From Hyphomicrobium sp. (GTDB taxonomy: Bacteria > Pseudomonadota > Alphaproteobacteria > Rhizobiales > Hyphomicrobiaceae): a stretch of DNA of 64,000 nt. Position 1 is the stretch's first letter, and every line of letters starts with the position of its first letter. The stretch lies in contig NZ_JBHYDS010000011.1 of assembly GCF_051860585.1 (NCBI RefSeq), forward strand, positions 27,093 to 91,092. Direction: 5' to 3'. Under the pieces are notes generated by a model. That model made no database searches. It had not been told where the DNA came from and saw only the letters and a program-made list of their open reading frames with translations. The position numbers were made by a program, and so were the translations under genes. Shown here one piece after another: positions 4,318 through 39,120 of this stretch.

Positions 4318-4411
4318 GTCCGCTTTGCCGAGGAAGCAGACGCCGGAGAGATAGCTCTCGCACTTGCTTGCGCTCGGCGGTCGGATGTCGGCATTCCATC
4401 GCAAAGCGGAC
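4318..4411. repeat. Paired palindromic element (12-bp and 13-bp spacer sites), copy 1
   Basis: GTCCGC-N12-GCAGAC, 45 bp, GTCGGC-N13-GCGGAC. Confidence 0.75.
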
Positions 4412-4451
4412 GTGGGAGATACGACTCGGTGGGCCATGTGTGGACGGCTCC

Positions 4452-4708
4452 GGGCTGTCAAGGGTTTGGTCACGTAGCAGTGTTGGTCGGAGCAGCCATG
4501 TGTTCGGCCTTTGAGTGCGGCTCACAGGGCCGCTGGCCATAATGCCCTCCGCGGATCAGGTCCCGGTCAAAAGCTCGCATTCGAAGATGCTCTGGCCCAA
4601 GTGGGTTGTCCTGATCACCGGATCGACCGGTTCTGCATTACGTGCTGTCTGCCCTTTCCAACCGTTTCATCACGCCGTTGCCGGCGCGATCTCGCTAGCG
4701 TCGCGGCC
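4452..4708 (-). ncRNA. Putative bridge/seek RNA of the IS1111 element
   Basis: 257-bp non-coding region downstream of the transposase, containing segments that match both target flanks and the element end (see findings). Transcript ends unknown. Confidence 0.75.
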
Positions 4709-5740
4709 CTATCGAGCCAATGCGACGGGTTCCCTGTAGCTCTCGCCCTTGGCCATCATGGCCCAGGCCATACGTGCGATCTTGTTGGCGAGCGCGATCG
4801 CCGCGACTTTCGTCGGTCGGCGCTCGAGAAGTTTTGCAAGCCACGGGCGATGTTTGGTGCCGTGGATCCTGGCGTAGCGGATCACGGCCAGTGCGCCCGC
4901 ACAGAAGAGCGAGCGCAGATAGCGATCGCCCTGCTTGGTGATGCTGCCGAGCTTCTCTTTGCCACCGCTGGAGTTCTGTTTCGGCACCAGACCGACCCAT
5001 GCCGAGAAGTCGCGGCCGGATCGGAACGCCTTCGGATCGGCAACGCTCGCGACCAGTGCGGTTGCGAGTGCAGGACCGACGCCGGGGAGTTCGTCGAGCC
5101 GGCGGCTTGTCTCGTTCGAGCGATGCCAGGCGTTGATCTGGCGGTCGAACTCCAGGATCTGAGCTTTGAACTTGCTGAGCAGCGCACCCAGGGCTTCGAG
5201 ACACGCACGCGCGACCTCGGGAATACGCTCGTCCCTTTCATCGGCAACGGTGTAGAGCAACTCCTCCACGCCGTTGCGTCCGACCGGCGCCACGATACCG
5301 AACTCGGCCAGATGGGCGCGGATGGTGTTGATGACCGCAGTCTGCTGCCGGATGAAGAGGTGTCGCGTACGATGAAGCATTAGGCAGCTCTGCTGCTCGG
5401 TCGTTTTGGTCGGCACGAAGCGCATGCTCGGCCGCTGCACCGCCTCACAGATGGCCTCGGCATCGGCAGCACCGTTCTTCTGGCGTTTGACATAGGGCTT
5501 CACGTAGGCCGGGGGCATGAGCCGCACGGTATGCCCGAGGGCCTGCAGCTCGCGCGACCAATGATGCGACGTGGCACAGGCCTCAATGCCAACTAGGCAG
5601 GGCGGCAGCTTCTTGAAGAACGCGAGCACGTACCGGCGCTTCAGCTGTCGGCCGACAACAACGCTGCCCTGCGCATCGACCCCATGAACCTGAAAGACAG
5701 ACTTTGCGATGTCGAGGCCAACGACTGTGATTGCCTGCAT
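4709..5740 (-). CDS. IS110 family DEDD recombinase/transposase
   Basis: GLDIAK, GIEACAT, KNGAADAEAI, LDELPGVG, GLVPKQNSSGGK, KQGDRYLR, ALANKIAR motifs. One catalytic Asp (usual KND) reads KNG. Confidence 0.96.
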   Translation of the reverse strand: MQAITVVGLDIAKSVFQVHGVDAQGSVVVGRQLKRRYVLAFFKKLPPCLVGIEACATSHHWSRELQALGHTVRLMPPAYVKPYVKRQKNGAADAEAICEAVQRPSMRFVPTKTTEQQSCLMLHRTRHLFIRQQTAVINTIRAHLAEFGIVAPVGRNGVEELLYTVADERDERIPEVARACLEALGALLSKFKAQILEFDRQINAWHRSNETSRRLDELPGVGPALATALVASVADPKAFRSGRDFSAWVGLVPKQNSSGGKEKLGSITKQGDRYLRSLFCAGALAVIRYARIHGTKHRPWLAKLLERRPTKVAAIALANKIARMAWAMMAKGESYREPVALAR

Positions 5741-5874
5741 GATGAGCTCCTCCGGATCCTGGTCGCCTCATCGGCAACCGATTCCAAGGCGCTTGCGCGC
5801 CCCGTGAGGAGCCGTCCACAGCATCAAAAGCGGAAGCGACTAGCTCAGCCTCGCCACTCAGAAAGTGAGCTGGC

Positions 5875-7476
5875 TTATTTCGGCGCGATGACGGCCTTAG
5901 GCGGTTCGTTGCGATAGCGCCAGAATGCGGCTGCGCCCTGCTCAATACGCTCCATCATCGTTCCGCGAGCGTCGGGTGGATGGGTGCCGTCCATCAAGAG
6001 CACGCCGAGGTCCTGAAGGAGTGCAGCCTTTTCGGCGAATCCGCTGTGGTTCAAGCCAAAGAACTCCGTGCTTGTCGCCGTTACGTCAATCGTCTCCACG
6101 CCGGCGACAACAAGAGGAGTCGAAGGTGGGGCCGGGACGTCACCAGCACGCGCAACGCCGCCCGCAACGGTCCGAGAAGCGATAAGGGCTTTATCGCTCG
6201 AAGACGCGTAAAGGGTCACCCCTTGCGCAAAACTACCCAGATTGGTCGCGAGCGTCTCGAACACATCCCGGTCGATATCCGGCGCCGCGAGAATAATTTG
6301 GGAAACGACAGCACCGCCCTTAAGTCCGCCGGCGAGTTGAATCTTTTCAAGAGTGCGCAAGAGCGCCGCGTTGCCCATGCTGTGCGCGATAAGATGGACC
6401 TTTGTGGCTTTCGACTGCGTCGCCACCAGCTCGATGAAGTTGCGCAAGTAGTCGACGGACTGGTCAGCACTGTCCTTGTCGTATAGGTAGCCGGTCAATC
6501 CGCCGCCAGAGGGCCAGCTATAGAGGAAAGGTACACCGTCGAAGCCTATATCGTAGGCGATCTGGGCCGTGCGATAGAGGGCATTTTCGAACGAGACGTT
6601 GTAGCCGTGCACAAAGATGAAGGCTTGGTCCTTGAACGTTTGTGACGCGCCAAGCTGCTGTCGAACCGCCTCGATAAATTTCTCGCGACTGAGAACGCCG
6701 ATGTCTTGGATTGTAAAGTGTCGCCGCGGATCTTCGCTCAGCTCCAGTAGGGTGACGCCGAAAATCGAAAGCGCCCAGGGTCTTTCAATTATTGCCCGGT
6801 AATGGTCCTTGGGAATCGTAACAAGGGCTTTTCCTAGAACGAGGGCGCGCGCTCGCGCGCCAGCGAAAGATGCGCGCTCCGTTCCCGACGCTTGTTTGCG
6901 GTCGGTGCCGAAGAACACTGGGACGGCGTCGTAAGGCTCGTCTGCCGCTTCGTCAACGCCGGGGACCGGCCCTCTTTCGACCAACGCGTCATCGGGGCTG
7001 GACGATCCGCTGGCGTTAAGCTGGCTCGCCATGGCCTCATCGGTTTCAGCTTGGTCTCCGTCACCTCGCAGGCGGTGGACCAGCGCGCGCTCCTGATAAG
7101 CGGAGGCAAGCTTTGGATCGAGGGTGATCGCGTGCGCAAGCTCGGCGAGCGCACGGTCCACATCGCCGGCCAGTCGCAACACCAAAGCCTTGGCGACATA
7201 TGACCTCGCTTTATTCGGATCGAGCGCGATTGCCTTGTCCGAGTCGGAAATTGCACTGTCGATCTTCCCCAGCTCGGCGTAGGCGCGTGCCCGGAACAAG
7301 TGGGCCTCGACAAGCCGTTCGCTGGCTGTGTCGCCCGCGACGATGATTTCCGTGCAAGCTTGTACTCTTGTCGAAAGCTCGCCGCTTTCGCAGTCCTGCA
7401 AAACGTCCGCGCTGCCAACCGAGCTCACGGCGAGCCAGACGATCAGCGCAAGAAGGCCAGAAGGTCGGCGCAGCAT
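5875..7476 (-). CDS. Exported TPR-repeat + DUF900 alpha/beta hydrolase (esterase-like)
   Basis: Signal peptide, three TPRs, VPVFFGTDR, FVHGYNVSF, YSWPSGG, HLIAHSMG, LAAPDID, terminal HS; GGGGAG RBS. Confidence 0.85.
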   Translation of the reverse strand: MLRRPSGLLALIVWLAVSSVGSADVLQDCESGELSTRVQACTEIIVAGDTASERLVEAHLFRARAYAELGKIDSAISDSDKAIALDPNKARSYVAKALVLRLAGDVDRALAELAHAITLDPKLASAYQERALVHRLRGDGDQAETDEAMASQLNASGSSSPDDALVERGPVPGVDEAADEPYDAVPVFFGTDRKQASGTERASFAGARARALVLGKALVTIPKDHYRAIIERPWALSIFGVTLLELSEDPRRHFTIQDIGVLSREKFIEAVRQQLGASQTFKDQAFIFVHGYNVSFENALYRTAQIAYDIGFDGVPFLYSWPSGGGLTGYLYDKDSADQSVDYLRNFIELVATQSKATKVHLIAHSMGNAALLRTLEKIQLAGGLKGGAVVSQIILAAPDIDRDVFETLATNLGSFAQGVTLYASSSDKALIASRTVAGGVARAGDVPAPPSTPLVVAGVETIDVTATSTEFFGLNHSGFAEKAALLQDLGVLLMDGTHPPDARGTMMERIEQGAAAFWRYRNEPPKAVIAPK

Positions 7477-7502
7477 TTGCAATCTCCCCACGCACGTTAC
7501 GA

Positions 7503-10466
7503 CTATGGCGGCGGCGACCGCTGCACACGGGCAAGCAAAAGATCGGGGACCGCGAGCGGCATGTTGACTGTCGGCGTTTGGCGATTGGCGGTCAGGTCTC
7601 TGACGCGCTCCTTGACGTACGTCTGCAGCATCGACGTCGTAATGTAGTCGCGATCGCGATATTCGGCTGCCCCGTTTATCCCTTCGACGACGGCCTTCGT
7701 GAAGGCTCCGTTTTTCCAGATTGCGGTTTCCAGAGAATTCTGCTTTCCGGTCGACGAAGCATACACGATGACGCCCATGGACGGCTGGCTTACTTGACTG
7801 ACGAAACCGATCACGTCCATCGGCACAAGTCCTGGGCCGAATATTCCGCCAGCGCGACAGGTATCGACAAAAAGCACCCTGCTGCCGACAATGCGCTTCA
7901 AGGCGGAGAGCAACTCGACGTAAGAGAGCGCAGTGTTCGGGAGCTGGGAGAGATTGGCGTCACGGGGTAGAAAATAGTAAATCCCGTCGCGGGTATCCAA
8001 ACCGTGACCGGCAAGGAAGACCATTCCAATGTCTGTCGGGCCGACCATCTTTGTCAGCCAGTCAAGTCCGCTGCGCATTCCTTCCAGAGTCGCCTCTTGG
8101 TTCGTAATGATTTTTGAAACCACGTCGACGAACGCTTTGTCTTTTTGCTGCACGACGGCGCTTACGAAGTCAGAGGCGTCCTTGGCGGGAAAGCTAAGTT
8201 TCAATTTCTTGTTGGCGTATTCGCTGACGCCGATGGCCAGCACATAGACTTTGCGTTTTTCAGCAGCGATGCCGGCTTGCTCGCCTGTCCATTTGAGGCG
8301 GACAGATGCCGGCTCGCTCGTCGAGAATCGATTGCTTGCAAAGAGCACCACTTCGCTATCCCGTTGCGGAACGATGATCTTGCGTTCGCCGATGACCTCA
8401 TTGCCCGCGCCGAGAGGAGGCGCCTCAAAAGTTCCGAGCGGATGGTCATCACTGCGTATGATGACCTCGTTTATGGGCTCACCCGATGGCGCTCGCAGAC
8501 GGTAACGCAGGACGACCTCGGGGCTGTTGATGCTTGCTCCGTTCTGAGGCTCCAGTATCTCGATGACCGGCGGCAGCAGCTCGGCGAAGTCCCGTTGCTT
8601 TTCCTCTCGGCCGCCTTCCGCGTTCGCTTCGCGAATTGCCTGAGCTTCGTCCAGAGCAGCGAGGGTCTTCACGACGATGCTTGGCTTGTAGTACTTGTCT
8701 CTGAAGCGTCCGACCGAAAAGAAATCCGCGGAATTATCGCGGCCGCGATTGACCTGCCACCCAACAAGCGAGTCGCCGCCTACGGACGACATGAAGTATC
8801 CGGATGGTGTCCAAGCGACCCAGCGCGCTCCGTCCGGATGTGGGAAGAAGGCCAGCAGTTCGGTCCCGGTGTCCATCGCGTACCAGCGGATGGTGCCGTC
8901 TCCGAGCGCGGCAACGACCAGCCGGTTGTCAGCGGTGGCCACCAAACCGCGAGCGGCGAAAGGAAGTTGAGTCGACCATAGAACCTTCGCTTCCGCATCG
9001 TAGCGTATGATGCGCCACGCGGTTCCCAAGAGAAGCGTCTTTGCGTCCGCCGCAAAGGTCAGGGACAAAGCCTGTTCCAGGGTTTTCAGCGGCAAAGGAA
9101 TGCCGTTGAGCGTTGGCTCGTAGCTTCGGCTCCAGTTGCGCACGTCGAGATCGGGCACATTGGTGACAGGAGAGGTCATCTCGATGTCGGCGGGTCCGTC
9201 GCCCTTCTCGATCACGCGGTCCAACAGAGAGAAGTACGCCGGCTCTGCACCAGATGGCTCGTAGGCGAACCGAATGGCAGTTCCGTCACGCGATACGGAA
9301 AGTCGGTCACCGACCTCGGTGTAATCAGCGACCTTGAGCCGCCGTTCCGTCGTCAACTTGTCGTTGGGTCCGATGAGCCCGATGTAGGGAACCTCGCTCG
9401 TGAAAGCCAATCCCCCGGTCGAGATGCCCGTCATACGCATGATTTGATTGGAGGGGCCCGGGATATCGAGCGGTCGCCCCCTGCCGCCGTCCGCCCAGCG
9501 GCGGAATGGAAAGCGATTCCCCTTTTGCCAGGTGCCTCCCGCATACAGCGACTTGCCGTCGGGCGACCACACGACACGCCACAAGGCACCATTGTCGACC
9601 CCACGCACGTCGGGACTGAACAGATCGGTCAGGTCGGTCGCGGAGATGACGTCGACCGCTGCGTGCCAGCGCTCTTCGGATTTTATGGACTCGTCATATG
9701 CGACGGCAAGCTGCGTCCCGTCCGGCGAGAAGCTTACGCCATCGGGCCGGCGACCCTCGCGCATGGTGCGGCTGGCGATCAGTTTGAAATTGCTGTCGTA
9801 GAGGCGAATCTTGCCATCGTAGCAGGATGTGACGAGCCGGCCGGTCGGGTCGAACTCAACCCATACGCTGTTCGAGCCATAGTCACGATCCTCGAACGCG
9901 AGGGAATAGTCGCTTGTCCGATAGACACGCAGGCCCTTTCCCGCCTTCAGCGCGAACGCAAAATACTTCCCATCTTTGGAGTAGGCAATGTGGTTGGCCC
10001 GATGCGGCAAATCGCAGACGGACTTGCGCATGTCGCCCACTTTGACGTCGATCACGTAGAAGCACCAGGGGCCGTCCACTCCGGCCCAGGCGCCCGTCCA
10101 GCCGGTTGTGATCAGCGTGTTGCCGTCAGGAGAGAATTCGACCGCGTACACCGCGCCTTCGTTGCCTTTGCCAACCGGCAGACGGATCGTGCGCGTCGGC
10201 TCCAGCTTCGGAATGGACCAGATGCGGACGGTCTGGTCATAGGCCGCGGTCGCCAGATGCGTGCCATCGGCGCTCGACGCGAGACCGAGAATAATGCCGG
10301 TGTGATCGCCTGTTTCGATTCGGAGTTTGGGATCCGGAACGACGTCCTGCGCCGGCGCAAAGCTTGTCCAAGCGCTTAATAAAAGCCCAATCAGAATGGT
10401 CTTAAGAGGAGAATTACGCAACCATGACCCCCGTGGCGTTGGCGATGAGCCTACGCGAACCCGCAA
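7503..10466 (-). CDS. Exported WD40 beta-propeller + caspase-like (peptidase C14) protein
   Basis: LRIETGDHT start, WD repeats, WVAWTPSGYF, Ig-like linker, VLAIGVSEY, FLAGHG (His), VDTCRAG (Cys), NGAFTKA, QTP. True start may be ~50 nt downstream. Confidence 0.88.
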   Translation of the reverse strand: MRVRVGSSPTPRGSWLRNSPLKTILIGLLLSAWTSFAPAQDVVPDPKLRIETGDHTGIILGLASSADGTHLATAAYDQTVRIWSIPKLEPTRTIRLPVGKGNEGAVYAVEFSPDGNTLITTGWTGAWAGVDGPWCFYVIDVKVGDMRKSVCDLPHRANHIAYSKDGKYFAFALKAGKGLRVYRTSDYSLAFEDRDYGSNSVWVEFDPTGRLVTSCYDGKIRLYDSNFKLIASRTMREGRRPDGVSFSPDGTQLAVAYDESIKSEERWHAAVDVISATDLTDLFSPDVRGVDNGALWRVVWSPDGKSLYAGGTWQKGNRFPFRRWADGGRGRPLDIPGPSNQIMRMTGISTGGLAFTSEVPYIGLIGPNDKLTTERRLKVADYTEVGDRLSVSRDGTAIRFAYEPSGAEPAYFSLLDRVIEKGDGPADIEMTSPVTNVPDLDVRNWSRSYEPTLNGIPLPLKTLEQALSLTFAADAKTLLLGTAWRIIRYDAEAKVLWSTQLPFAARGLVATADNRLVVAALGDGTIRWYAMDTGTELLAFFPHPDGARWVAWTPSGYFMSSVGGDSLVGWQVNRGRDNSADFFSVGRFRDKYYKPSIVVKTLAALDEAQAIREANAEGGREEKQRDFAELLPPVIEILEPQNGASINSPEVVLRYRLRAPSGEPINEVIIRSDDHPLGTFEAPPLGAGNEVIGERKIIVPQRDSEVVLFASNRFSTSEPASVRLKWTGEQAGIAAEKRKVYVLAIGVSEYANKKLKLSFPAKDASDFVSAVVQQKDKAFVDVVSKIITNQEATLEGMRSGLDWLTKMVGPTDIGMVFLAGHGLDTRDGIYYFLPRDANLSQLPNTALSYVELLSALKRIVGSRVLFVDTCRAGGIFGPGLVPMDVIGFVSQVSQPSMGVIVYASSTGKQNSLETAIWKNGAFTKAVVEGINGAAEYRDRDYITTSMLQTYVKERVRDLTANRQTPTVNMPLAVPDLLLARVQRSPPP

Positions 10467-10502
10467 ACGGACGATGCTCTATTTGCGGGCTCGATCCGTC
10501 GC

Positions 10503-10682
10503 TTATTCGCCGCTTCCGCTAGGGGTCGGAGTGTCGCCTCCCTCGCCGGAGCCACTTTCACCAGAACCACTTTCGCCCCCACCTGCGACGACGGGATCGT
10601 AGCTGAGAACCAAAACGGCCGCAGATGCGGTCAGCAGTGCCGCGAGCGCCCAGGCGACAACCGAATACTTCCTCATCGCCAT
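10503..10682 (-). CDS. Small secreted Gly/Ser/Glu-rich peptide A (59 aa; not in ORF track)
   Basis: MAMRKYSVVAWALAALLTASAAVLVLSYDPVVAGGGESGSGESGSGEGGDTPTPSGSGE*, translated by hand; GGTGAGG RBS; paralog directly upstream. Confidence 0.8.
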   Translation of the reverse strand: MAMRKYSVVAWALAALLTASAAVLVLSYDPVVAGGGESGSGESGSGEGGDTPTPSGSGE

Positions 10683-10780
10683 GGCAAATCGACCTCACCT
10701 CAATGGTTCGAATCAACGCTTCCAACCAAACGTTTTTCTAGATGCGTCGCGGCCGTTTGGTCTGGCTCGCCGAGCCAAGC

Positions 10781-10936
10781 TCACTCTCCAGACGTCTGGA
10801 CTTCGCCGGTTCCGCTTGTCTTGCCTTCGTCGTCAGGCCCGGCGGCAACGGGGTCGTTGCTCAGAACCAGCCCGGCAATCGACGTCGTGAGCAACGCAGC
10901 CAATACCCACGCGAGAATGGAATTCTTCATAGACAT
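10781..10936 (-). CDS. Small secreted peptide B (51 aa; not in ORF track), paralog of peptide A
   Basis: MSMKNSILAWVLAALLTTSIAGLVLSNDPVAAGPDDEGKTSGTGEVQTSGE*; AAGGGGG RBS. Confidence 0.8.
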   Translation of the reverse strand: MSMKNSILAWVLAALLTTSIAGLVLSNDPVAAGPDDEGKTSGTGEVQTSGE

Positions 10937-11094
10937 GACCCCCTTAAATTCTTGCGGAGCGAGTTTTCAGCAAAACTTGTAACTTACGATTATCATGCGT
11001 GCACAGACAGCGATAGGTCATTGCTATCTATAAATTGTGTTGTCGACTGGTTTGTCACAGCGCCGCTTCAGCGGTCATCCAAACAGGGATTGCC

Positions 11095-12870: not shown

Positions 12871-12880
12871 GGGGTCTCGA

Positions 12881-14245: not shown

Positions 14246-14383
14246 TTCAGCTGAGGGTCAGTCGCTGCCTTGCTTGATTACGCTTGAACGTCTGATCAGC
14301 TTCGACAAGCGGACCTCGCAATCGCGTCATTTGGTCAACGTCGGTTCACCAGCGCCTATGTCTGCTTGTGGCTCATAGCCGAC
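14246..14383. repeat. Palindromic site cluster, copy 2
   Basis: TTCAGC-N12-GCTGCC (14246-69); GTCTGA-N13-GCGGAC (14290-314), 45 bp, GTCTGC-N12-GCCGAC (14360-83). Confidence 0.7.
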
Positions 14384-15856: not shown

Positions 15857-15915
15857 GTCAGTTTCTGGCCCTTTGCTGCCGTGAGCCGTTAGACAGCAGA
15901 GTCCCAACAGCCGAC
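15857..15915. repeat. Two N12 palindromic sites downstream of the minimal recombinase
   Basis: GTCAGT-TTCTGGCCCTTT-GCTGCC and GACAGC-N12-GCCGAC. Confidence 0.6.
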
Positions 15916-15989
15916 ATCGACATCAATGCAATCGGCGACGCAACAACGCCGCCGACGTTGTCCGGAATCGGGAGAAGAGCGTCAGTCGC

Positions 15990-16637
15990 TAAGATATCGA
16001 TCTTCTCGGCGATTTCTATCGCGTCGTCGACCTCAATGCCGAGGTACCTTACCGTGCTTTCGATCTTCGAATGCCCAAGCAGGAGTTGGACAGCTCAAAG
16101 GTTTCCGGTCCGCCGATAGATGAGCACCGCCTTTGTCCGACGCAGCGAGTGCGTACCGAACTTGGCCGGGTCGAGACCGATACTGGCGATCCACTCAAGA
16201 ACCAGGCGAGCATACTGCCGCGTTGTCAGCCCACCTCTGTCGCCACGACCAGCGAATAGGAATTGACCCGGCTTGCGTCCAGTCAAGCGCAGATACTAGT
16301 CGATGGCCTGGCGTGTCTGATCGGCCAGCTCAAACCGTACCGGTCTGCCAGTTTTCTTCTGTCGGATTGTTGCGCGGTCCATCGAGTATCCGCTCGGCGC
16401 AACATCATCTACGCGAACGGCCACTACGTCACAGCCGCGAAGCTTGCTGTCGATCGCTAGGTTGAACAGAGCAAGGTCTCTTTTCTTGCCCTCGATTTGG
16501 AGCTTTGTACGGATCGACCAGACGTGGCTCGGGCGCAAGGGCGGCTTCGCGCCCACCAGTTTGCCCTTGTTCCAGGGGACGCGAGCGGGCTTGGCAGCCG
16601 GTTCAGTAGCAGTAGGTGCACTCGGATGGTCTTCCAT
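15990..16637 (-). pseudogene. Minimal (~210 aa) tyrosine recombinase of the PWNKGK type, two in-frame nonsense codons
   Basis: PWNKGKLVGAKPPL, IDSKLRGCD, QKKTG, THSLRRTK, LLGHSKIESTVRYLG all in one frame, interrupted by TAG (16296-98) and TGA (16095-97); AAGGAG RBS. Confidence 0.9.
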
Positions 16638-16850
16638 GGTCAGTCTCCTTTTCTGAGAGACAAACCAGCATGCGCCTCCGTCCACCTAACCTGCTGATCT
16701 CACGACCGGTCTCAGCCTACTTCTTCCATTTATTGGTTACTGCCCGTCGAGTTTGACCCATAGCTGTCATCGACACCGGCGATTGCGGCTCATTCGCGAA
16801 TTGATTGCCCGTTGCCGCACGAGCGGAGGTACAGACTTCCGCTTTGCTTT

Positions 16851-22852: not shown

Positions 22853-23194
22853 TCTGTGGGCGCCCAGGATCTCGGGGGGGCTGCCCCGCAACGTCCGTTC
22901 CTGGCCCTTAGCGCCGGACACTCGACGGAAGCTATCGGATCACCTCGAGCCTCGACATGCTGTGGCCAGGAGGCGTGGCTGCCTCGGCAGCGTCGACGAT
23001 CGGTCCCAAAAGCGGAAGTCTGACGACGATCACCGCTTGTTTGTTCCGCTTATCTATTCAGCGTCTGCTTTTGTGTGATGGTCGGTCATCGACGGCATTC
23101 GTGAGAACCACCAAAATGTCTAAGTCATCGAAATTATTGGCGCTCCGGATGAAGATAAAAACTTCTGCTTTCGCATGGAAATTTGGGTAGGCGA

Positions 23195-29462: not shown

Positions 29463-29526
29463 TCAATTTACGTTTCATGATGTCGCTTCCAAAAAAATGT
29501 ATATTGGAAACGTCGCGCAACGCGTG

Positions 29527-30375: not shown

Positions 30376-30394
30376 ATTTTGGAAGGTGGAGAAG

Positions 30395-31648: not shown

Positions 31649-31869
31649 TGGATGCGCGCCAAGGCTACCTGTGCTGCAATGTCGTCGGTGAGGCGCTCCA
31701 GTGATGCCAATATCAGCGCGACGCATCGTGTTGCAAGCTCGCTTCCAAAGCCAAAGCACACCCTGCAGAGTGGCGCAGCTGGCGACAAATTGCGTAGGAT
31801 CCCCCTTGCGAACGAATTGGTTTGTCCGCGATTTCGACAAGTCGGCGCCGAGCCACAATGGAGATAGGA

Positions 31870-32499
31870 ATGAAGGCTTTCGTTCTGTCATCGAGTCCTC
31901 GCCGCAACGGCAATTCGTCGATCCTGGCGCAAGCCGTTCGCGATGGTCTCAACGAGGCCGGCCACGATGTCGAGTTCGCTTACGCTGACGACTTCATTGG
32001 CTCCTTCCTTCGGGATTGCCGACAATGCCGCAAGCCGGACGGGGAATGCGCAATCGACGACGGATTCCGCTCCGTCTTCTTCGAGCGGTATCTCCCGGCG
32101 GACGGCTTCATCGCCGCGACGCCGATCTACTGGTACGGCGCAGCAGCGCAGCTCAAGGCCTTTTTCGATCGGGCATTCTGCTACTACGCCGCATCCCACC
32201 CTCAATCTGCAGAGGTGATTGAGGGCATGCTCGGCAAGCGCGTCGGTCTCGTGTTGAGCTCGGAAGAGACCTTTCCCATGGTCTCGGGCGGCATCGTCAG
32301 CCAGATCCAGGAGTTTTCGCGCTACACGCGTTCGACGTTTGTCGGCGTCGTGCATGGGGTTGGCAACGCGCGAGGCGACGTCCACAAGGATCCGCTTGAT
32401 CCGGTCGGATGCGCGCGCCGGTTCGGGCACGAATTTTTCACGCGCCATGCCACGGACTATCAGCTCGACACCCCACGCTCGGGACGTGTTTGGGGTTAG
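31870..32499 (+). CDS. NADPH-dependent FMN reductase / flavodoxin-like protein
   Basis: SSPRRNGNS, CRQC...C, TPIYWYG..AQLKAFFDR. Confidence 0.9.
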   Translation: MKAFVLSSSPRRNGNSSILAQAVRDGLNEAGHDVEFAYADDFIGSFLRDCRQCRKPDGECAIDDGFRSVFFERYLPADGFIAATPIYWYGAAAQLKAFFDRAFCYYAASHPQSAEVIEGMLGKRVGLVLSSEETFPMVSGGIVSQIQEFSRYTRSTFVGVVHGVGNARGDVHKDPLDPVGCARRFGHEFFTRHATDYQLDTPRSGRVWG

Positions 32500-32689
32500 A
32501 CCCTACGTGCGGCCGGCGAGCGCTCCGGTTCCCGGGGAAAATGATCCGCATGAGAGAGAATGGTATCCGCCGCGCTTCTGAGAGAGTTGGGATGTTCGGT
32601 TTTGAATGCCGATGACGCTATTTGCGACTCGTGTCATTCGGCCCTACGTGCATCAGCTTCGCAGAACGGGGTGGAGTTGATCTCCATCA

Positions 32690-32890
32690 CAGCGGGGAAC
32701 CAAATATCACCCCCGGCCAAGATTGAAAAACTAGCCGAATCAGCTCGTCAGGCTTGCGCTCGACTTGCCCTGCGCGAGGTCAGCGTCACGGACCAAAAGA
32801 TCCGGATTTTGGGGTCAAGCAACCGATCGTGCGGGCCTCGGCTCGCACCGTCTTCTCGTCGATCCGCTAACGAGTGGCTTGAAACGAAAA
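32690..32890 (+). pseudogene. Possible relic of a large serine recombinase C-terminus
   Basis: ISPPAKIEKLA..EVSVTDQKIRILGS..RSANEW recalls C-termini of alphaproteobacterial recombinases; no intact N-terminus. Confidence 0.3.
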
Positions 32891-32980
32891 ATTCTCAGTC
32901 CAAGGGATAATTTCGGTGTTCCTCTCATTTAGGTGTCCGACTCGCGTTAAGGCTTTGGTCGCTCTCGGTGGGGACCTTCA

Positions 32981-34489
32981 ATGCCTAGGAAGGCTTGCAA
33001 GCACCAAACGCGAATCGAACTGTCGCGCGCGGCCACGCTGTTCCGGTGCGGGACTGCTTGTTGGGCGTTGTTGGCCGGCGGGTGCGCGGTCGGCCCCGAC
33101 TACATTCGACCCGATCTCAATCTTCCTGCAGCCTACCTCCCCGGTAACGAACCACCGGCGGTCAAGAATGATGCCCAGCGCTTTGTCGAATCACGCGGTT
33201 TGCCCGCGCGATGGTGGCTGGTGTTTGGGTCCAACAAGATCAACTCCCTCGTGGATATGGCTTTTGCGCAAAATCCATCTGTCGGCGAAGCCATCGCCGC
33301 GTTGGAACAAGCCAAATGGAATGTCCGCGCTCAGGAAGGAGCCTTTTTTCCGCAAATCACCGGAGAGTGGGCATCAACACGCCAGAAGCTGGCGGCCCCG
33401 GAGACCGCTCCTCCGCGATTCAAAGGCGAAATCTTCACGCTCCATACGCCGCAGGTGAATGTGGGGTTCCTTCCTGACGTATGGGGGAAGAACCGCCGCG
33501 CCGTCGAAACTCTGATGTCCGTCGCGGATGCGCAATATTACGAGTTGGAAGCCACCTATCTGACACTTGCAACGAACGTCGTCGTGGCAGTGATTGAAGA
33601 AGCCTCGCTCGCCGAGCAGATCGCGGCCACGCGCGATATCGTAAATATCAACAAACGCATTCTCGGCGTGCTCGACAAGGAATTCAAAGCGGGAACCGCA
33701 TCGGGGCTCGACGTGGCGTCCCAGGAAGCCCAGCTCGCGCAAGCTCAATCGCTCCTGCCTCCCCTTGAAAAAGCCTATGCGCAGCAGCGCAATCTGATTG
33801 CAGTATTGACAGGAAACTTTCCCGCTGACGCGGATTGGACCCCGACGAGCCTGAACGGTATCCGTCTCGAGCGCGAGTTGCCCGTCATCCTCCCCTCACA
33901 GCTCATCGAGCAGCGTCCCGATGTGCGTGGTGCGGAAGCGCAAGTCCACGCCGCAAGCGCGGAAATTGGCGTTGCAACAGCGAACCTGCTGCCGCAGTTC
34001 GGGATTAGCGGCGATGTCGGATCTTCCGCGCGATTGCTGTCGGATCTGTTCACGCCTCAATCGCTCGTGTGGTCACTCACGGGTAGCATCATACAGCCGA
34101 TCTTCAAGGGCGGCACACTGCTGGCACAAAAACGCGCGGCCGAGGCAGCATTCCTCGAGGCGGCGTCCGCCTATCGCTCGACAGTTCTGACTGCCGTGCA
34201 GAACGTGGCCGATGTCCTGCGTGCGATCGAAGCAGACAACAATGCCGTCCGCGCCGCGCTCGCCTATGCGAAAGCATCCGAGAAGGCTCTGAACATGGTG
34301 GAGACGGAGTTGCGAGCAGGCCAGGTCGCGATCTCCGTTCTACTCACATCTCAGCAGAATTATCAGCAGTCGAGGCTTTCCGTCATTCAAGCGCGCGCGC
34401 TACTGCTCGCGGATACGGCCGCCCTGTTTCAGGCCCTCGGTGGCGGCTGGTGGGACAGCGATGCAAGCCTAATCGCAGCCGTGGAGTGA
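32981..34489 (+). CDS. NodT/OprM-type efflux outer membrane lipoprotein
   Basis: LAGGC lipobox, VGPDY.RP, WW..F, RPDVRGAE, LFQALGGGWW. Confidence 0.93.
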   Translation: MPRKACKHQTRIELSRAATLFRCGTACWALLAGGCAVGPDYIRPDLNLPAAYLPGNEPPAVKNDAQRFVESRGLPARWWLVFGSNKINSLVDMAFAQNPSVGEAIAALEQAKWNVRAQEGAFFPQITGEWASTRQKLAAPETAPPRFKGEIFTLHTPQVNVGFLPDVWGKNRRAVETLMSVADAQYYELEATYLTLATNVVVAVIEEASLAEQIAATRDIVNINKRILGVLDKEFKAGTASGLDVASQEAQLAQAQSLLPPLEKAYAQQRNLIAVLTGNFPADADWTPTSLNGIRLERELPVILPSQLIEQRPDVRGAEAQVHAASAEIGVATANLLPQFGISGDVGSSARLLSDLFTPQSLVWSLTGSIIQPIFKGGTLLAQKRAAEAAFLEAASAYRSTVLTAVQNVADVLRAIEADNNAVRAALAYAKASEKALNMVETELRAGQVAISVLLTSQQNYQQSRLSVIQARALLLADTAALFQALGGGWWDSDASLIAAVE

Positions 34490-34607
34490 GACCGGTGCTT
34501 TTCGCGGTATCGCGTGAGACCCGCAGGCTGGCCGCCGGCAGCACCGGTCCGGAGCTGTACGGAGCATCTTGAATAGCCTACGCTGCGTCGCGTAACGTGA
34601 ATACAAG

Positions 34608-35843
34608 ATGCGGTTTGCCATGGAATGCGATCTATCGTTCCTGTCATTTACCAAGTTCGCGCAAGGCGCCGGTCGCGCTCCACGTATCGTCGTCCGCAGA
34701 TATCTCGTAGGGTCAATCCTCTTGGCAGCAATGTTGGCCGTCGGAGCCTGCGGCCAAAACAATACCTATGTGCCCCCGCCTCCGCCGAAGGTCGACCTCG
34801 CATTTCCGCTCAAGCAGACCGTCGAGCAGTACCTCCTGTCCACCGGCAGCACGGCCGCCGTTAACAGCACATCGCTCGTTGCACGCGTTCCCGGGTTCCT
34901 TCAGGCGATCAACTACAAGGACGGCGACGCGGTCAAAGCCGGCACCGTCTTGTTCGTCATCGAACAGAGGCCGTACCAGCTTGCGCTCGAACAGGCCCAG
35001 GCTGGACAAGCGAGTGCCGTGGCGTCGACAAAGCAGGCACAGGCGGACTATGCACGCCAGTCGGAGCTCGCGGCGCAAAAGATCTCGAGCCAAGCGACCC
35101 TCGATCAATCCACCGCTTCCAAGCAATCCGCAGTTGCAAAGGAGAAGCAGGCGGATGTGGACGTCGAGCAGGCCCAGCTCAACCTCAACTACACGGAAGT
35201 GAAGGCCCCGTTCGACGGTATCGTCACGGCGCGAGAGGTTTCGCTCGGCCAGTACGTCGGGGCCGGTTCCGCCACGACGCTGGCCACGATCGTCCAACTC
35301 AATCCGATCTACGTCAATTTTTCCGTCAGCGAAACCGAGGTGCAGCGCATTCGCGCCAACTTCCAGGCGCGCGGAATTACTCCTGAGGACCTGAAGAAAA
35401 TTCCAGTCGAGGTCGGGCTGCAGACCGAGACGGGATTTCCGCATCGAGGGACGCTCGACTATGCGACGCCCGGTGTCACCGCGACAACCGGCACATTGCT
35501 GGTTCGTGCGATCCTGGAGAATGCCAAGCGGCAGCTTTTGCCCGGCTACTTTGTCCGCGTGCGCGTACCTCTGCAAAGCCAGCCAGACGCGCTTCTGGTT
35601 CCGGACCACGTGATAGGCAGCGATCAGGGCGGGCGCTACGTGCTCGTTGCAGGAAAGGACGATGTCGTTGCCCAGCGGAAGGTCGAGCTCGGCCAGCAGG
35701 CAGGGGACTTGCGCGTCATCACCAAGGGCCTCGAGGTCAGCGACCGCATCCTGATAACCGGCTTGATGAGCGTGGTTGCGGGACAGAAGATCGATCCGGT
35801 CATGCGGGACCTATCCGGCGTTGAGCAAGGCGCTCCGCAATGA
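34608..35843 (+). CDS. RND periplasmic adaptor
   Basis: VGAC lipobox, ARVPGFL, APFDG, LLPGYFVRVR. Confidence 0.93.
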   Translation: MRFAMECDLSFLSFTKFAQGAGRAPRIVVRRYLVGSILLAAMLAVGACGQNNTYVPPPPPKVDLAFPLKQTVEQYLLSTGSTAAVNSTSLVARVPGFLQAINYKDGDAVKAGTVLFVIEQRPYQLALEQAQAGQASAVASTKQAQADYARQSELAAQKISSQATLDQSTASKQSAVAKEKQADVDVEQAQLNLNYTEVKAPFDGIVTAREVSLGQYVGAGSATTLATIVQLNPIYVNFSVSETEVQRIRANFQARGITPEDLKKIPVEVGLQTETGFPHRGTLDYATPGVTATTGTLLVRAILENAKRQLLPGYFVRVRVPLQSQPDALLVPDHVIGSDQGGRYVLVAGKDDVVAQRKVELGQQAGDLRVITKGLEVSDRILITGLMSVVAGQKIDPVMRDLSGVEQGAPQ

Positions 35844-38800
35844 TCTCAAAATTCTTCATCGAGCGCCCGGTCCTTGCGAACGTCATCGCGATCCTGATGG
35901 TCGTCATCGGTACGGTCGCCGTTTTCCGCCTGCCCGTTTCGCAATACCCCAACGTCGTCCCGCCGACGGTCCAGGTGACAGCGCGGTATCCCGGCGCGAG
36001 TGCGCGAACTGTTATCGACACCGTTGCACTCCCGATTGAGCAGCAAGTGAACGGCGTGGAGGGCATGCTCTACATGCAGTCCTTCGCGACGTCCGACGGC
36101 ACGTACGCACTCACGGTGACCTTCGAGATCGGCACGGATCTCAACGCGGCGCAGGTTCTCGTACAGAACCGCGTTTCGTCGGCCATGGCGTCTCTGCCGC
36201 AATCCGTCCAGACCCAGGGCGTGGTGGTTCAGAAGAAGTCGACGGCCATCCTGCAGATCATCACCCTGACCTCGCCGGACAACAGCTTCGACAGCCTTTA
36301 CCTCAGCAATTACGGAACGATTAAGCTCAAGGACGAGCTCGCTCGTCTCCCGGGCGTGGGTAACGTCAACGTCTTCGGTGCTGGCCAGTATTCGATGCGC
36401 ATTTGGCTCGACCCAGCCAGCATGCAGGCGCGCAATCTCAACGCCCAGGACGTCATCCAGGCCCTTCAGCAACAGAGCGAGCAGGTCACGGCCGGACAGC
36501 TCGGTATGCCGCCTGCGCCGTCGACCCAGTCGTTTCAGTACACGATCGATGTCGTCAGCCGCTTCGATGACCCGGCTCAGTTCGCGAATGTCGTCGTAAA
36601 GACGGGCGCGAACGGCGATCTGACGCGCCTGCGGGATGTCGGACGCGTGGAACTCGGCGCGCAGACCTACAGCCAAGTCTTCAACCTTGACGGCAAGCAG
36701 GCCGCCGGGCTCGCGATATTTCAGACGCCTGGCGCGAACGCGCTCGATGTGGCGCAGCGCGTAGCTGACAAGATCCGGGTCTTGTCGCACGAGTTTCCGC
36801 AAGGAATGGCGTATTCCATCCCGTTCGACACGACCCTGTTCGTCCAGGCGGCGATATCGGAGGTCTACAAAACACTTCTCGAAGCTGCGGTGCTGGTCCT
36901 GATTGTCATTCTCGTATTCCTGCAGGACTGGCGGGCAACTCTTGTTCCGGCGACCACCGTGCCCGTGACGATCATCGGTGCCTTCGCCGCCATGGCTGCG
37001 CTCGGCTTCTCGATCAATCTGTCGACGCTGTTCGCCATCGTGCTGGCAATCGGCATCGTCGTGGACGACGCCATCGTCGTCGTCGAGGGCGCTGCGCACA
37101 AGATCGAGAAGGGCCTGTCGGGTCACGACGCGGCTATCGGCGCCATGAACGAACTCATGGGGCCAATCATCGGCATTACGCTGGTCCTGATGGCGGTGTT
37201 TCTTCCGGCGTCGTTTCTGCCCGGCCTGACCGGCCAGATGTACGCCCAGTTCGCCCTCGTGATTGCAGCTACCGCACTCATCAGCGCCATCAACGCCGCA
37301 ACGCTGAAGCCCACGCAATGCGCGCTCTGGCTGCGCCCTCCCGTACCGCCAGAGAAGCGCAACTTCTTCTATCGCGGCTTCAATGCGATCTACGACCGCG
37401 CCGAGAAAGGCTATTCGCGGCTCATCGGGTCCATGGTCCGGCACAGCGGCGTAATGGCGCTCATCGCGGCCGCGATCGTCGGCGCGGCGATTTACGGAAT
37501 GTCGCGCGCGCCGACCGGCTTCCTGCCCATCGAAGACCAAGGCTACCTGCTGGCCGCCGTACAGCTTCCGGATGGCGCAAGCCTCGACCGCACGCAGAAG
37601 ACCTTGCAACAAGTGGAGCAGATCGCGAACTCGGTTGACGGCGTCGAGCGGGTCATAACGATCGGGGGCATTTCGGTGCTCGACAACAGCGCCTCGCTCG
37701 CAAACGGCGGCGTCGCCTACATCATGCTCAAGGACTGGAGTGTGCGCGGCAAGGGACAAGATCTCGCGTCTCTCTACAAGACGATCAACGACAAGCTCAC
37801 CAATATGAAGGACGGAAACGTACTCGTCTTGCCGCCACCTCCCATCCAGGGCATCGGAAACGCGGGTGGCTTCACACTTCAGATCGAGCTGCGCGACGGC
37901 AGTTTTGATCTTTCCAAGTTGGGAAGCGCGACCACCGCCGTCGTCGCCGCCGCCAGCACCCAATCCGGCATTCAGCGCATTTCGACGTCCTTCCGGGCTA
38001 GCGCACCGCAGTACAAGGTCAATATCGATCGAGAGAAGGTGCAGGCGCTGCTACTGACGACCGATCAGGTGTTCTCGACTTTGGCCACGTACATGGGCTC
38101 AAGCTACGTGAGCCAGTTCAACAAATTCGGTCGCGTCTTCCAGATCTACGTTCAGGGCGACGCAAGCTTTCGTATGAACCCGGACGACGTTCTTCGCCTG
38201 AAAGCTCGCAATCAGAACGGCGACATGATCCCGCTAGGCACGGTTCTCACCATTGAGCCCAGCCTCGGGCCGTCATTGATCAGCCTCTATAATCTTTACC
38301 CATCCGCAACGGTCGTCGGCGTGCCGGCGAAAGGTTTCTCGTCCGGCGATATGATCGCGCTCATGGATGGGATCACGGCGCATACGTTGCCGACGGGAGT
38401 GGGCTCATCCTGGACGGCGCTGTCCTATCAAGAAAAGCTGGTTGGCGGGCAGATCTATTTCGTCTTCGCGCTCGCGATGCTGCTCGTGTATCTCGTCCTC
38501 GCAGGTCAGTACGAGAGCTGGTTTGCGCCGATGACGGTTCTCTTCGCAGTTCCACTCTCTCTGGTTGGACCCGTTCTGGTATTCCTGCTCTTGCGCATTG
38601 AGATCAATCTATACGCGCAGATCGGTCTCGTGCTCCTGATCGCGCTGTCGGCCAAGAACGCCATTCTGATCGTCGAGGTCGCGCGCGAATTGCGCCATGC
38701 CGGAAAGCCCATCTTGGACTCGGCGATTGAAGCCGCGCGCGCGCGCTTCCGTCCGATCCTCATGACATCGTTCACATTCGCATTAGGTGTACTGCCGCTC

Positions 38801-38989
38801 GTACTTGCAGAAGGAGCAGGGGCTTCGGCGCGTAAATCCATCGGCATCACGGTTTTCACCGGCATGCTCGCGTCGACCTGCCTTGCGGTCCTGTTCGTTC
38901 CCTCCCTGTTCGTCGTAGTTCAGAAATTTGAAGAATGGCGGGGCGGGAAAAAAGGCGCGGCAAAGGTCGAGGCCCCTCAGTTGGGATGA
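35840..38989 (+). CDS. HAE1 RND efflux permease
   Basis: FFIERPVLA, SQYPNVVPP, GIVVDDAIVVVE, SAKNAILIVE, RFRPILMTS. Confidence 0.96.
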   Translation: MISKFFIERPVLANVIAILMVVIGTVAVFRLPVSQYPNVVPPTVQVTARYPGASARTVIDTVALPIEQQVNGVEGMLYMQSFATSDGTYALTVTFEIGTDLNAAQVLVQNRVSSAMASLPQSVQTQGVVVQKKSTAILQIITLTSPDNSFDSLYLSNYGTIKLKDELARLPGVGNVNVFGAGQYSMRIWLDPASMQARNLNAQDVIQALQQQSEQVTAGQLGMPPAPSTQSFQYTIDVVSRFDDPAQFANVVVKTGANGDLTRLRDVGRVELGAQTYSQVFNLDGKQAAGLAIFQTPGANALDVAQRVADKIRVLSHEFPQGMAYSIPFDTTLFVQAAISEVYKTLLEAAVLVLIVILVFLQDWRATLVPATTVPVTIIGAFAAMAALGFSINLSTLFAIVLAIGIVVDDAIVVVEGAAHKIEKGLSGHDAAIGAMNELMGPIIGITLVLMAVFLPASFLPGLTGQMYAQFALVIAATALISAINAATLKPTQCALWLRPPVPPEKRNFFYRGFNAIYDRAEKGYSRLIGSMVRHSGVMALIAAAIVGAAIYGMSRAPTGFLPIEDQGYLLAAVQLPDGASLDRTQKTLQQVEQIANSVDGVERVITIGGISVLDNSASLANGGVAYIMLKDWSVRGKGQDLASLYKTINDKLTNMKDGNVLVLPPPPIQGIGNAGGFTLQIELRDGSFDLSKLGSATTAVVAAASTQSGIQRISTSFRASAPQYKVNIDREKVQALLLTTDQVFSTLATYMGSSYVSQFNKFGRVFQIYVQGDASFRMNPDDVLRLKARNQNGDMIPLGTVLTIEPSLGPSLISLYNLYPSATVVGVPAKGFSSGDMIALMDGITAHTLPTGVGSSWTALSYQEKLVGGQIYFVFALAMLLVYLVLAGQYESWFAPMTVLFAVPLSLVGPVLVFLLLRIEINLYAQIGLVLLIALSAKNAILIVEVARELRHAGKPILDSAIEAARARFRPILMTSFTFALGVLPLVLAEGAGASARKSIGITVFTGMLASTCLAVLFVPSLFVVVQKFEEWRGGKKGAAKVEAPQLG

Positions 38990-39025
38990 CGACCTCGCAA
39001 TACGCAGCACGCGCTGGATGCCAGC

Positions 39026-39120
39026 GTCAGCTCTTTGAGGCGCAGCGGAAATCACCCGGACGGGACGAATGCACTGACAACGCTCACCAGGCTGACTTCC
39101 GCTGTCTCGGCATTGCAGAC
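39026..39120. repeat. Paired palindromic element, copy 3
   Basis: GTCAGC-N13-GCGGAA, 46 bp, TTCCGC-N12-GCAGAC. Confidence 0.7.

What the first reader, a model, noticed from the sequence alone, without database searches (positions are those of the whole stretch)
4318..39120. Fixed-geometry palindromic sites bracketing cargo blocks, plus a minimal tyrosine recombinase: possible integron-like cassette system
Seen: three ~94-95-bp elements with the same geometry (N13 site, 45-46 bp, N12 site; arms GTCxGC/GCxGAC) at 4318-4411 (inverted), 14290-14383 and 39026-39120. The N12 spacers of copies 1 and 3 share CTCGGCA. Single N12 sites, mostly with a TG(A/G)CCC-type spacer, lie at 14246, 15857, 15892, ~16745 and 22893, and outside the island at 52572. 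All are intergenic and fall at junctions between unrelated modules (caspase/HTTM block, hydrolase, SDR-RND-TetR, amine module plus RND, Pycsar). Sites flank a PWNKGK-type recombinase on both sides. Known: inverted arms around an asymmetric spacer are the usual tyrosine recombinase substrate. Inference: the cargo was assembled as cassettes by this recombinase family, using sites that are not attC.
Basis: partly seen in the sequence, partly recalled or inferred. Interest (0 to 1): 0.78.

Follow-up and report, generated by a model that had tools for sequence, protein, structure and literature searches.

The report
Mini recombinase module and its sites
The repeated palindromic sites are real: they are the end-sites of a very small, widespread mobile DNA module that encodes only a stripped-down tyrosine recombinase (dead in this genome), together with gene-less miniature copies scattered through a tRNA-inserted genomic island. 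Whether they assembled the island's cargo, integron-style, is possible but not shown.

Summary
The fixed geometry (N13 site, 45-46 bp, N12 site) is the conserved right end of a ~0.87-kb unit: left site, 210-aa catalytic-domain-only tyrosine recombinase, then site A, 44-45 bp, site B. In other Hyphomicrobiaceae genomes, homology to the window's unit stops inside these sites. The spacing is 44-45 bp in 22 of 27 units measured.

All five lie inside a 43-kb tRNA-Glu genomic island that has its own phage-type integrase and 19-bp att repeats. The only recombinase copy in the genome carries two stop codons.

A genome-wide family of about 13 single hairpins (GTCYGC-N12-GCRGAC, loop TGGGTCA or similar) shares the site architecture. 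Every locus I tested sits at an accessory/core breakpoint. An IS1111-type element has inserted into one site.

It is not an integron: no IntI, attC, attI or cassette array. Movement of the window's cargo blocks through these sites could not be shown. In other genomes, extra right ends lie 0.6-2.5 kb from units, mostly in direct orientation, with unrelated genes between, so module exchange stays plausible.

Other agents in this scan reported the same kind of system on other DNA. I found no published description.

The parts
1204..1222 (+). Left att repeat of the genomic island: a 19-bp copy of the 3' end of tRNA-Glu
   Evidence: Exact 19-bp direct repeat of 44410-44428
4318..4411 (-). Site B is 4318-4341 (CTCGGCA-type loop), then a 45-bp gap, then site A 4387-4411. 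A gene-less right-end module.
4437..5823 (-). IS110/IS1111-family insertion sequence (transposase 4709-5740) with sub-terminal inverted repeats. It is inserted into a degenerate hairpin-like site directly beside doublet 1 (flanks TGGGCCA | TCAAAAGCGGAAG).
   Evidence: Pfam and NCBIfam hits. Ends read. Single copy in the genome.
14246..14383 (+). Left-end-like site with GGGTCA at 14246-14269, site A 14290-14314, 45-bp gap, site B 14360-14383.
   Evidence: (36.6 bits for 14360). The same left-site-plus-doublet layout occurs in another genus (L123).
15857..15880 (+). TGGCCC-type hairpin 11 bp outside the unit's site B. The same trio (site B, 10-11 bp, GGGCCA hairpin) occurs on contig C1 and in genome G076.
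15892..16774 (-). Autonomous unit, inactivated. Left site 16746-16768 (GACAGC-TAT-GGGTCA-AAC-TCGAC), conserved leader, recombinase ORF 15990-16637 with in-frame stops at codons 114 (TAG) and 181 (TGA), site A 15960-15984, 44-bp gap with a GC-rich inverted repeat, site B 15892-15915.
   Evidence: Homology limits. Only copy in the genome.
22893..22919 (+). Degenerate TGGCCC-type hairpin about 75 bp outside doublet 4
   Evidence: (13.9 bits)
22994..23087 (-). Site B 22994-23017 (TTCCGC-TTTT-GGGAC), 45-bp gap, site A 23063-23087.
   Evidence: Site B is rank 7 for the right-end HMM, in the right register.
39026..39120 (+). Site A 39026-39050, 46-bp gap, site B 39097-39120 (CTCGGCA-type loop).
43284..44327 (+). 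Phage-type integrase of the island, with SAM-like N-terminal, central and catalytic domains. Unrelated to the small recombinase.
44410..44485 (-). tRNA-Glu (UUC, 44411-44485). Its 3' end, 44410-44428, is the right att repeat of the island. GC content rises from about 0.59 to about 0.66 here.
52572..52595 (-). Single perfect hairpin (GTCTGC-AATGGGTCAGGA-GCAGAC) outside the island. It lies in the gap where synteny with five genus relatives breaks, just after phaC.
   Evidence: (41.4 bits)

Best explanation
The sites are the double-stranded recombination sites of a family of very small mobile modules.

The autonomous form is about 0.87 kb and carries one gene: a ~210-aa tyrosine recombinase made of the catalytic domain plus a 45-residue N-terminal tail (PWNKGK). 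It is bounded as follows:
- Left: a 24-bp site, G.C.GC-N3-GGGTCA-rAA-TCGAC.
- Right: a bipartite end. Site A (6-N13-6), then 44-45 bp holding a GC-rich inverted repeat, then site B (G.C.GC-TnnT-GGGAy-N3-GC...).

The inner half of each end site is conserved as sequence. The outer half is conserved only as a pattern. That is what is expected if the outer halves come from the target and the crossover lies in the 12-bp centre near GGG.

Inferred mechanism: recombinase subunits bind the 6-bp inverted arms. Site A and the intervening repeat act as an accessory arm. Left-by-right recombination excises a circle, which re-integrates into hairpin-like sites of the form GNCNGC-N12-GCNGNC.

The window's tRNA-Glu island holds one dead autonomous copy and four gene-less derivatives or solo right ends. 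The scattered single hairpins are the same kind of site: landing pads or scars. They mark the borders of accessory DNA, and an IS1111-type element also uses them.

Shown: the anatomy, its conservation, multiple copies with different flanks, and the breakpoint association. Inferred: binding, crossover position, excision and integration.
For: - The recombinase has more than 8000 close homologs (85-97% identity among the best 120). It has 240 relatives among species-representative genomes, mostly Hyphomicrobium, Hyphomicrobiaceae, Devosia and Filomicrobium.
- DNA homology to the window's unit starts 125-137 bp upstream of the ATG and ends 90-100 bp after the stop, inside the sites. Column conservation falls to background outside -9 on the left and +10 on the right.
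- Both ends are detected by HMM in 52 of 80 loci.
- The gap between site A and site B is 45 bp in 18 loci and 44 bp in 4, out of 27 measured.
3 of those 5 match the right-end HMM, and none has a recombinase gene nearby.
- An internal-deletion derivative that keeps both ends lies on contig C1. G076 has one full unit plus three derivatives or solo ends in one island next to tRNA-Gln.
- At least 15 of 26 genus genomes carry units, often several, with different flanks.
- Single hairpins lie at breakpoints: C2 59123 and 60986 bracket a strain-specific sulfatase module in a hypervariable spot; C1 284556; C4 177737; window 52572.
- Residues 47-206 align to the catalytic domain of Xer-type recombinases only.
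Against: - No empty site or excised circle was found. Wherever one flank of a unit could be matched to this genome, the other flank was unrelated, so mobility is inferred from copy number and sharp borders.
- Window doublets 1, 2 and 5 are not recognisable as right ends by sequence, only by geometry and arms.
- Counts of single hairpins do not track the presence of units across the genus: G076 and G207 have units and no hairpin hits, while G215 has 7 hairpins and no unit. Only 150 candidates per genome were scored.
- No complementarity was found between the outer arms at the two ends of a unit (11 loci only).
- The draft assembly (28 contigs) may hide further copies.
Confidence: 0.62

Rival explanations
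1. Module-exchange platform. The sites serve not only the recombinase module itself but also bracket cargo. DNA between two sites is excised as a circle or inverted, then re-inserted at another site. On this reading the island's blocks (4318-14383, 16851-22852, 22994-39120) were assembled or shuffled this way, much as dif modules are on Acinetobacter plasmids.
For: - In 12 of 80 homologous loci a second, gene-less right end lies 0.6-2.5 kb from the unit. 10 are direct and 2 inverted. Unrelated genes lie between: ArsR+AHSA1, LysR+SDR, amidohydrolase, DUF808, DEAD helicase.
- G076's island has four right-end matches, all in one orientation, separated by stretches of about 3.8-18 kb.
- In the window, two blocks are bracketed by outward-facing site B ends (doublets 1 and 2; doublets 4 and 5).
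- A strain-specific sulfatase gene on C2 is bracketed by two hairpins at a hotspot where relatives hold 89 bp to 5.8 kb of other DNA.
- All tested single hairpins lie at synteny breaks.
Against: - No module from the window was found elsewhere with the same sites. The hydrolase is an orphan. The amine module in G004 has no sites and differs by gene indels that are not at sites. The caspase/HTTM block was not found.
- Some 'cargo' between right ends looks like ordinary chromosomal genes (DEAD-box helicase). That pattern fits elements landing in pre-existing hairpins downstream of genes.
- The shortest version of the C2 hotspot has no hairpin.
- Site orientations in the window are mixed.
Confidence: 0.25
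2. Ordinary REP-like hairpins, acting as terminators or mRNA stabilisers, with no functional tie to the recombinase. The unit simply carries or sits beside such hairpins.
For: - Hairpin counts and unit presence do not co-vary in the genus.
- The hairpins are intergenic.
- One stem position shows C-G / T-A covariation (22 of 500 shuffles reach the observed score).
Against: - Homology between units ends inside the sites in dozens of genomes.
- The 13/45/12 geometry is fixed.
- Deletion derivatives keep both ends.
- The stems are only 6 bp with 12-nt loops and no T-run, so they are poor terminators.
- There are only about 13 copies per genome, at accessory DNA borders rather than evenly spread.
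Confidence: 0.08
3. A true integron or close integron relative: folded single-stranded attC-type sites captured at an attI next to the recombinase.
For: Palindromic sites and a tyrosine recombinase are present. In some other genomes there are direct arrays of right ends downstream of the recombinase.
Against: - The recombinase gives no hit to the integron-integrase model. It aligns to Xer models only over the catalytic domain and far below their cut-offs.
- The sites lack the attC R''-L''/L'-R' layout.
- No attI or Pc is apparent.
- Right ends carry a second site at a fixed double-helical spacing, which points to double-stranded DNA architecture.
Confidence: 0.02

Closest known systems
dif (pdif) modules of Acinetobacter plasmids, recombined by XerC/XerD (own knowledge; PMC7399989 seen)
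   Same: Short palindrome-like tyrosine-recombinase sites bracket discrete gene modules and lie at the borders where gene content differs between replicons. No transposase is involved.
   Different: The sites here are 6-12-6 with a GGG-centred spacer, not 11-6-11 dif-like. The enzyme is a dedicated one-domain recombinase carried in its own 0.87-kb module, not the host XerC/XerD. The right end is bipartite (a second site 45 bp away). The location is chromosomal islands of Hyphomicrobiaceae.
Integrons (IntI, attI, attC cassettes)
   Same: A tyrosine recombinase plus imperfect palindromes beside promoterless-looking cargo. Direct arrays occur in some genomes.
   Different: No IntI-specific features, no attC architecture, no attI/Pc, and the sites look double-stranded. 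The recombinase gene is itself flanked by sites and moves with them.
REP/REPIN with RAYT (HUH Y1 transposase)
   Same: A single-gene 'domesticated' enzyme flanked by the same short palindromes that are dispersed in intergenic regions. Doublets occur with fixed spacing.
   Different: The enzyme is a tyrosine recombinase, and no Y1_Tnp gene is in the genome. Copy number is low (about 13). There is no co-occurrence across the genus. The sites sit at accessory DNA borders.
Small integrative elements and CIMEs built by site-specific accretion (own knowledge; review PMC5704250 listed, not read)
   Same: Repeated att-type sites inside an island separate blocks. Gene-less derivatives that keep att sites could be mobilised in trans.
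   Different: The autonomous element is IS-sized and encodes nothing but the recombinase. No arm-binding domain and no excisionase are evident.
IS1111-subgroup IS110 elements that target REP or attC palindromes (own knowledge; Tobes and Pareja 2006, cited in PMC5082802)
   Same: An element of this type in the window is inserted into one of the hairpin-like sites.
   Different: This is a second, unrelated user of the sites (DEDD transposase, RNA-guided), not the system that made them.
FimB/FimE-size invertases and TnpI/IRS of Tn4430 (own knowledge)
   Same: Short tyrosine recombinases. A core site plus accessory motifs at fixed spacing control directionality.
   Different: No sequence relationship was shown. 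Here the end sites are in direct orientation around the gene, and the unit is multi-copy with varied flanks.

Membership tests
Tyrosine recombinase superfamily | Catalytic domain with the R...HxxR...H/W...Y residues | tested here: met
   The read-through translation shows RGCD, HSLRRT, GHS and VRY motifs. PF00589 is recorded on all listed homologs. Residues 47-206 align to Xer catalytic domains. The window copy has two stops.
Tyrosine recombinase superfamily | N-terminal core-binding domain, as in Xer, Cre and IntI | tested here: not met
   Only about 45 residues precede the catalytic domain. Alignments to XerA, XerC and XerD start at their residues 110-127.
Integron | IntI-type integrase | tested here: not met
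   NCBIfam integron-integrase model TIGR02249 gives no hit for the small recombinase. It hits only the separate phage-type integrase, weakly.
Integron | attC sites (R''-L''/L'-R' with extrahelical bases, variable length 60-140 nt), each ending a cassette | tested here: not met
   The sites are 24-25 bp, 6-12/13-6.
Integron | attI plus Pc beside the integrase, and a unidirectional cassette array | tested here: not met
   The window has five doublets in mixed orientation, 1.5-16 kb apart. Both sides of the recombinase carry end sites of its own unit.
pdif / dif modules | 28-bp XerC-6 bp-XerD sites | tested here: not met
   Different arm and spacer lengths and different sequence
pdif / dif modules | Modules present, absent or swapped exactly at the sites | tested here: inconclusive
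   Hairpins lie at every tested breakpoint, and extra right ends bracket unrelated genes. No identical module was seen in two contexts.
REP-RAYT / REPIN | HUH Y1 transposase (PF01797) flanked by REPs | tested here: not met
   No PF01797 match in a genome that is 99.99% complete. The control genomes did give matches.
Site-specific integrative element | Discrete unit with sharp, conserved ends in varied contexts | tested here: met
Site-specific integrative element | Empty target site or circular junction observed | tested here: inconclusive
   Only one flank was ever matched.

The most novel reading that the evidence does not exclude
A widespread, undescribed gene-module exchange system of Alphaproteobacteria and beyond. 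An IS-sized module encodes only a one-domain tyrosine recombinase. Its 24-bp sites, with a bipartite 13/45/12 right end, also bracket and move unrelated cargo genes, building and reshuffling genomic islands. It would work like integron cassettes or dif modules but be mechanistically and evolutionarily separate from both.
Probability: 0.3. Interest if true: 0.8.

Novelty: new variant of a known kind. Interest (0 to 1): 0.6.

Why it matters
If the anatomy reflects activity, this is an insertion-sequence-sized mobile element driven by a minimal tyrosine recombinase. That class is absent from the usual IS catalogues.
- It has gene-less miniature derivatives and a defined, testable site architecture.
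- It is very abundant: thousands of near-identical proteins in soil and water metagenomes.
- Its sites mark the borders of accessory DNA, so it could explain part of how islands in Hyphomicrobiaceae are built.
- A 210-residue recombinase with a 24-bp site would be a compact candidate tool.

The copy in this window is a fossil. The value here lies in the site map and the comparative evidence, not in a working system.

Tried and rejected
- The bare arm pattern as a genome-wide repeat: rejected. N12 is not enriched over other in-frame spacings. A loose hairpin definition gives 1085 hits against 1159 in the reversed genome.
- Alignment of the three 94-bp copies shows no shared sequence beyond the arms. 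The unbiased repeat finder does not report them.
- Rfam finds only the tRNA.
- RAYT link: no Y1_Tnp gene in the genome.
- Complementarity of outer arms between the two ends of a unit, or within site B: not above permutation (11 loci).
- Right-end HMM on the window: doublets 1, 2 and 5 are not detected.
- Empty-site search. The flanks of the C1 derivative are conserved only on one side in 25 relatives. Twenty unit loci from genus relatives match this genome on one flank at most. A gene next to the G076 unit occurs in three other genomes without clear sites.
- Cargo mobility. The hydrolase module is absent from 200 family genomes and its protein is an orphan. The SDR protein is not on record. 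The amine module in G004 has no sites. The caspase/HTTM block was not found; that search was wrongly limited to 45 genomes by my completeness setting.
- The sulfatase homolog in G037 is flanked by an IS5-like gene and a weak GGGTCA-type site. Suggestive only.
- Literature: two full-text searches and three papers gave no description of this element. That is not proof of novelty.
Full report
**1. What is in the window.**
ORF, Pfam and NCBIfam mapping together with tRNA and composition scans show a classical genomic island.
- A 19-bp copy of the 3' end of tRNA-Glu (44410-44428) recurs at 1204-1222.
- A phage-type integrase (43284-44327) sits next to the tRNA.
- GC content is about 0.59 inside the island and 0.64-0.66 outside.

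So the island as a whole was inserted by a different enzyme using tRNA-derived att sites, not by the palindromes.

**2. Checking the observation.**
- The strict pattern GTCNGC-N12-GCNGAC occurs 4 times against 0.22 expected from shuffles. With one mismatch it occurs 14 times against 6.0.
- Genome-wide, the bare pattern is no commoner at N12 (36) than at N9, N21 or N24 (48, 35, 39). The arms alone therefore do not define a family, and the hit at 45595 lies in coding sequence.
- The three 94-95-bp elements do not align beyond their arms. The repeat finder does not report them.

**3. A real hairpin family.**
Listing all genome matches exposed about a dozen copies with a shared loop: (a)tGTC[CT]GC-tttGGGTCAcaa-GC[GA]GAC. 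Related loops are TTGGGACGAA, TGGCCC and CTCGGCA.
- A covariance model built from 12 copies finds 13 matches at E<0.001 in the 4.15-Mb genome.
- In the window, 52572 (41.4 bits) and 14360 (36.6 bits) are strong. 4387, 15857 and 22893 score 14-16 bits, and the rest are lower.
- The fourth stem position covaries: 4 C-G, 4 T-A, 2 T-G and 2 mismatches.

**4. The recombinase and its unit.**
The PWNKGK gene reads on the minus strand from 16637 to about 15990, with stops at codons 114 (TAG) and 181 (TGA). It is the only copy in the genome.
- It aligns to Xer-type enzymes only over their catalytic domains. About 45 residues lie ahead of that region.
- It has more than 8000 close homologs. It also has 240 relatives among species-representative genomes, chiefly Hyphomicrobium, Hyphomicrobiaceae, Devosia and Filomicrobium. 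Diverged relatives occur on plasmids of many Proteobacteria.
- BLAST of the window's copy with 500-bp flanks against 80 fetched loci shows that homology begins 125-137 bp before the ATG and ends 90-100 bp after the stop.
- The alignments and column conservation place both limits inside hairpin-type sites.
  - Left: background, then G.C.G(C)-N3, then GGGTCA-gAATCGAC-GG..GGTAACCA.
  - Right: ...CGATG-G.C.GC-TnnT-GGGAy-N3-GC, then background.
- In each end site the inner half is conserved as sequence and the outer half only as a pattern. That is the signature of an element half-site joined to a target half-site.
- HMMs of the two ends detect both in 52 of 80 loci.

**5. The fixed geometry explained.**
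In the right end, a first site ((T/C)GACGC-N13-(C/G)CGGAC) precedes site B by 45 bp in 18 loci and by 44 bp in 4, out of 27 measured. A GC-rich inverted repeat lies between them.
- A strict pattern written from the three window copies finds those 3, one copy each in 5 of 300 other family genomes, and none with the reversed control.
- None of the five has a recombinase gene nearby. Three are recognised over nearly their whole length by the right-end HMM. Two have a GGGTCA left-type site 24-30 bp upstream, as at 14246 in the window.
- The window has two further doublets: the unit's own right end (15892-15984, 44-bp gap) and 22994-23087 (45-bp gap).
- Window doublets 1, 2 and 5 are too diverged for the HMM. 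Their assignment rests on geometry, arms and loop classes.
- The CTCGGCA loop shared by copies 1 and 3 recurs, as hairpins beside right ends, in two other genomes.

**6. Derivatives and copy number.**
- Contig C1 (about 435440-435745) holds an internal-deletion derivative: the left site and leader are fused to the last ~35 codons and the complete right end. A GGGCCA hairpin follows 11 bp beyond, the same trio as in the window at 15857-15915.
- A genus relative, G076, has one full unit plus three derivatives or solo ends inside one low-GC island beside tRNA-Gln. All end matches are in one orientation.
- At least 15 of 26 genus genomes carry units, often several, with unrelated flanks.
- This is what a mobile module with non-autonomous offspring looks like.

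**7. Link to breakpoints.** Every single-hairpin locus that I compared with relatives lies at a border of accessory DNA.
- C2 59123 and 60986 bracket a strain-specific 2-kb sulfatase module. It lies between two core genes whose spacing in 24 relatives ranges from 89 bp to 5.8 kb.
- C1 284556 lies exactly where strain-specific DNA meets a conserved gene.
- The C4 177737/177791 cluster is in DNA absent from all 25 relatives.
- The C1 derivative sits where synteny ends.
- Window 52572 lies in the gap after phaC, where synteny with five relatives stops.
- The IS1111-type element at 4437-5823 is inserted into a degenerate site beside doublet 1.

**8. Cassette question.**

*For:*
- In 12 of 80 loci a second, gene-less right end lies 0.6-2.5 kb from the unit. 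10 are direct and 2 inverted. Unrelated genes lie between them.
- The window's doublets pair as outward-facing ends around 4318-14383 and 22994-39120.

*Against:*
- None of the window's blocks could be found elsewhere with the same sites.
- Some inter-site genes look like ordinary chromosomal genes.
- Hairpin counts do not follow unit presence in the genus.
- The shortest form of the C2 hotspot has no hairpin.

I therefore rank 'selfish mini-module with derivatives, landing in or leaving hairpin sites at accessory DNA borders' first. I keep 'module-exchange platform' as a live, more novel reading at about 0.25-0.3.

**9. Comparison with known systems.**
- It fails every defining test for an integron that I could apply: IntI, attC, attI/Pc and a cassette array.
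- It fails for REP-RAYT, because the genome has no HUH transposase.
- It fails for dif modules, because both the site format and the enzyme differ.
- It works most like a very small integrative element. Its relation to cargo is dif-module-like.

Two literature searches and three papers gave no description of it.

Notes from other agents in this scan report the same kind of tiny recombinase unit, miniature site pairs and module borders on other genomes. I treat those notes as leads only. The tests are my own.

Noticed in passing
window 56423-56529, 56800-56925, 60423-60530: Three copies of a ~110-bp non-coding repeat (70-94% identity in two blocks). It is unrelated to the hairpin sites and has no Rfam match.
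   Followed up: no
L106:1681-1813 (G000 contig C1, about 285180-285312): A ~130-bp dispersed repeat. It has at least 10 copies in this genome at 85-92% identity and at least 9 listed copies in several genus relatives. It looks like a separate MITE/REP-like family.
   Followed up: no
L151:12940-13180 (G076 C1 1042940-1043180): A ~240-bp element directly after the G076 recombinase unit. It recurs three times in G212 and once in G123.
   Followed up: no
G000 contig C2 59100-61590 (L105:1000-3490): A hypervariable intergenic hotspot between two core genes. Relatives hold from 89 bp to 5.8 kb of different DNA there. This genome holds a sulfatase gene between two hairpins.
   Followed up: partly
window 23220-32030 compared with L155 (G004): Another genus carries a compact version of the amine module (hydrolase, unknown gene, permease, metallophosphoesterase, TetR, FMN reductase). 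It lacks the glutamine-synthetase-like and AllG genes, so those two look like later additions or losses. The gene indels are not at any site.
   Followed up: partly
G000 contig C7 1-420: Two N13 hairpins (at 303 and 395) lie at the very start of a contig. Repeats of this family may break the assembly, so copy numbers are lower bounds.
   Followed up: no
window 4437-5823: The IS110/IS1111-family element is single-copy in the genome. I did not test the guide-RNA claim.
   Followed up: partly
G040 contig C9 704808-705253: A 354-bp fragment of the gene homologous to window 52750-54774 lies about 50 bp from a hairpin of the same family, in a different genomic context from the window.
   Followed up: no
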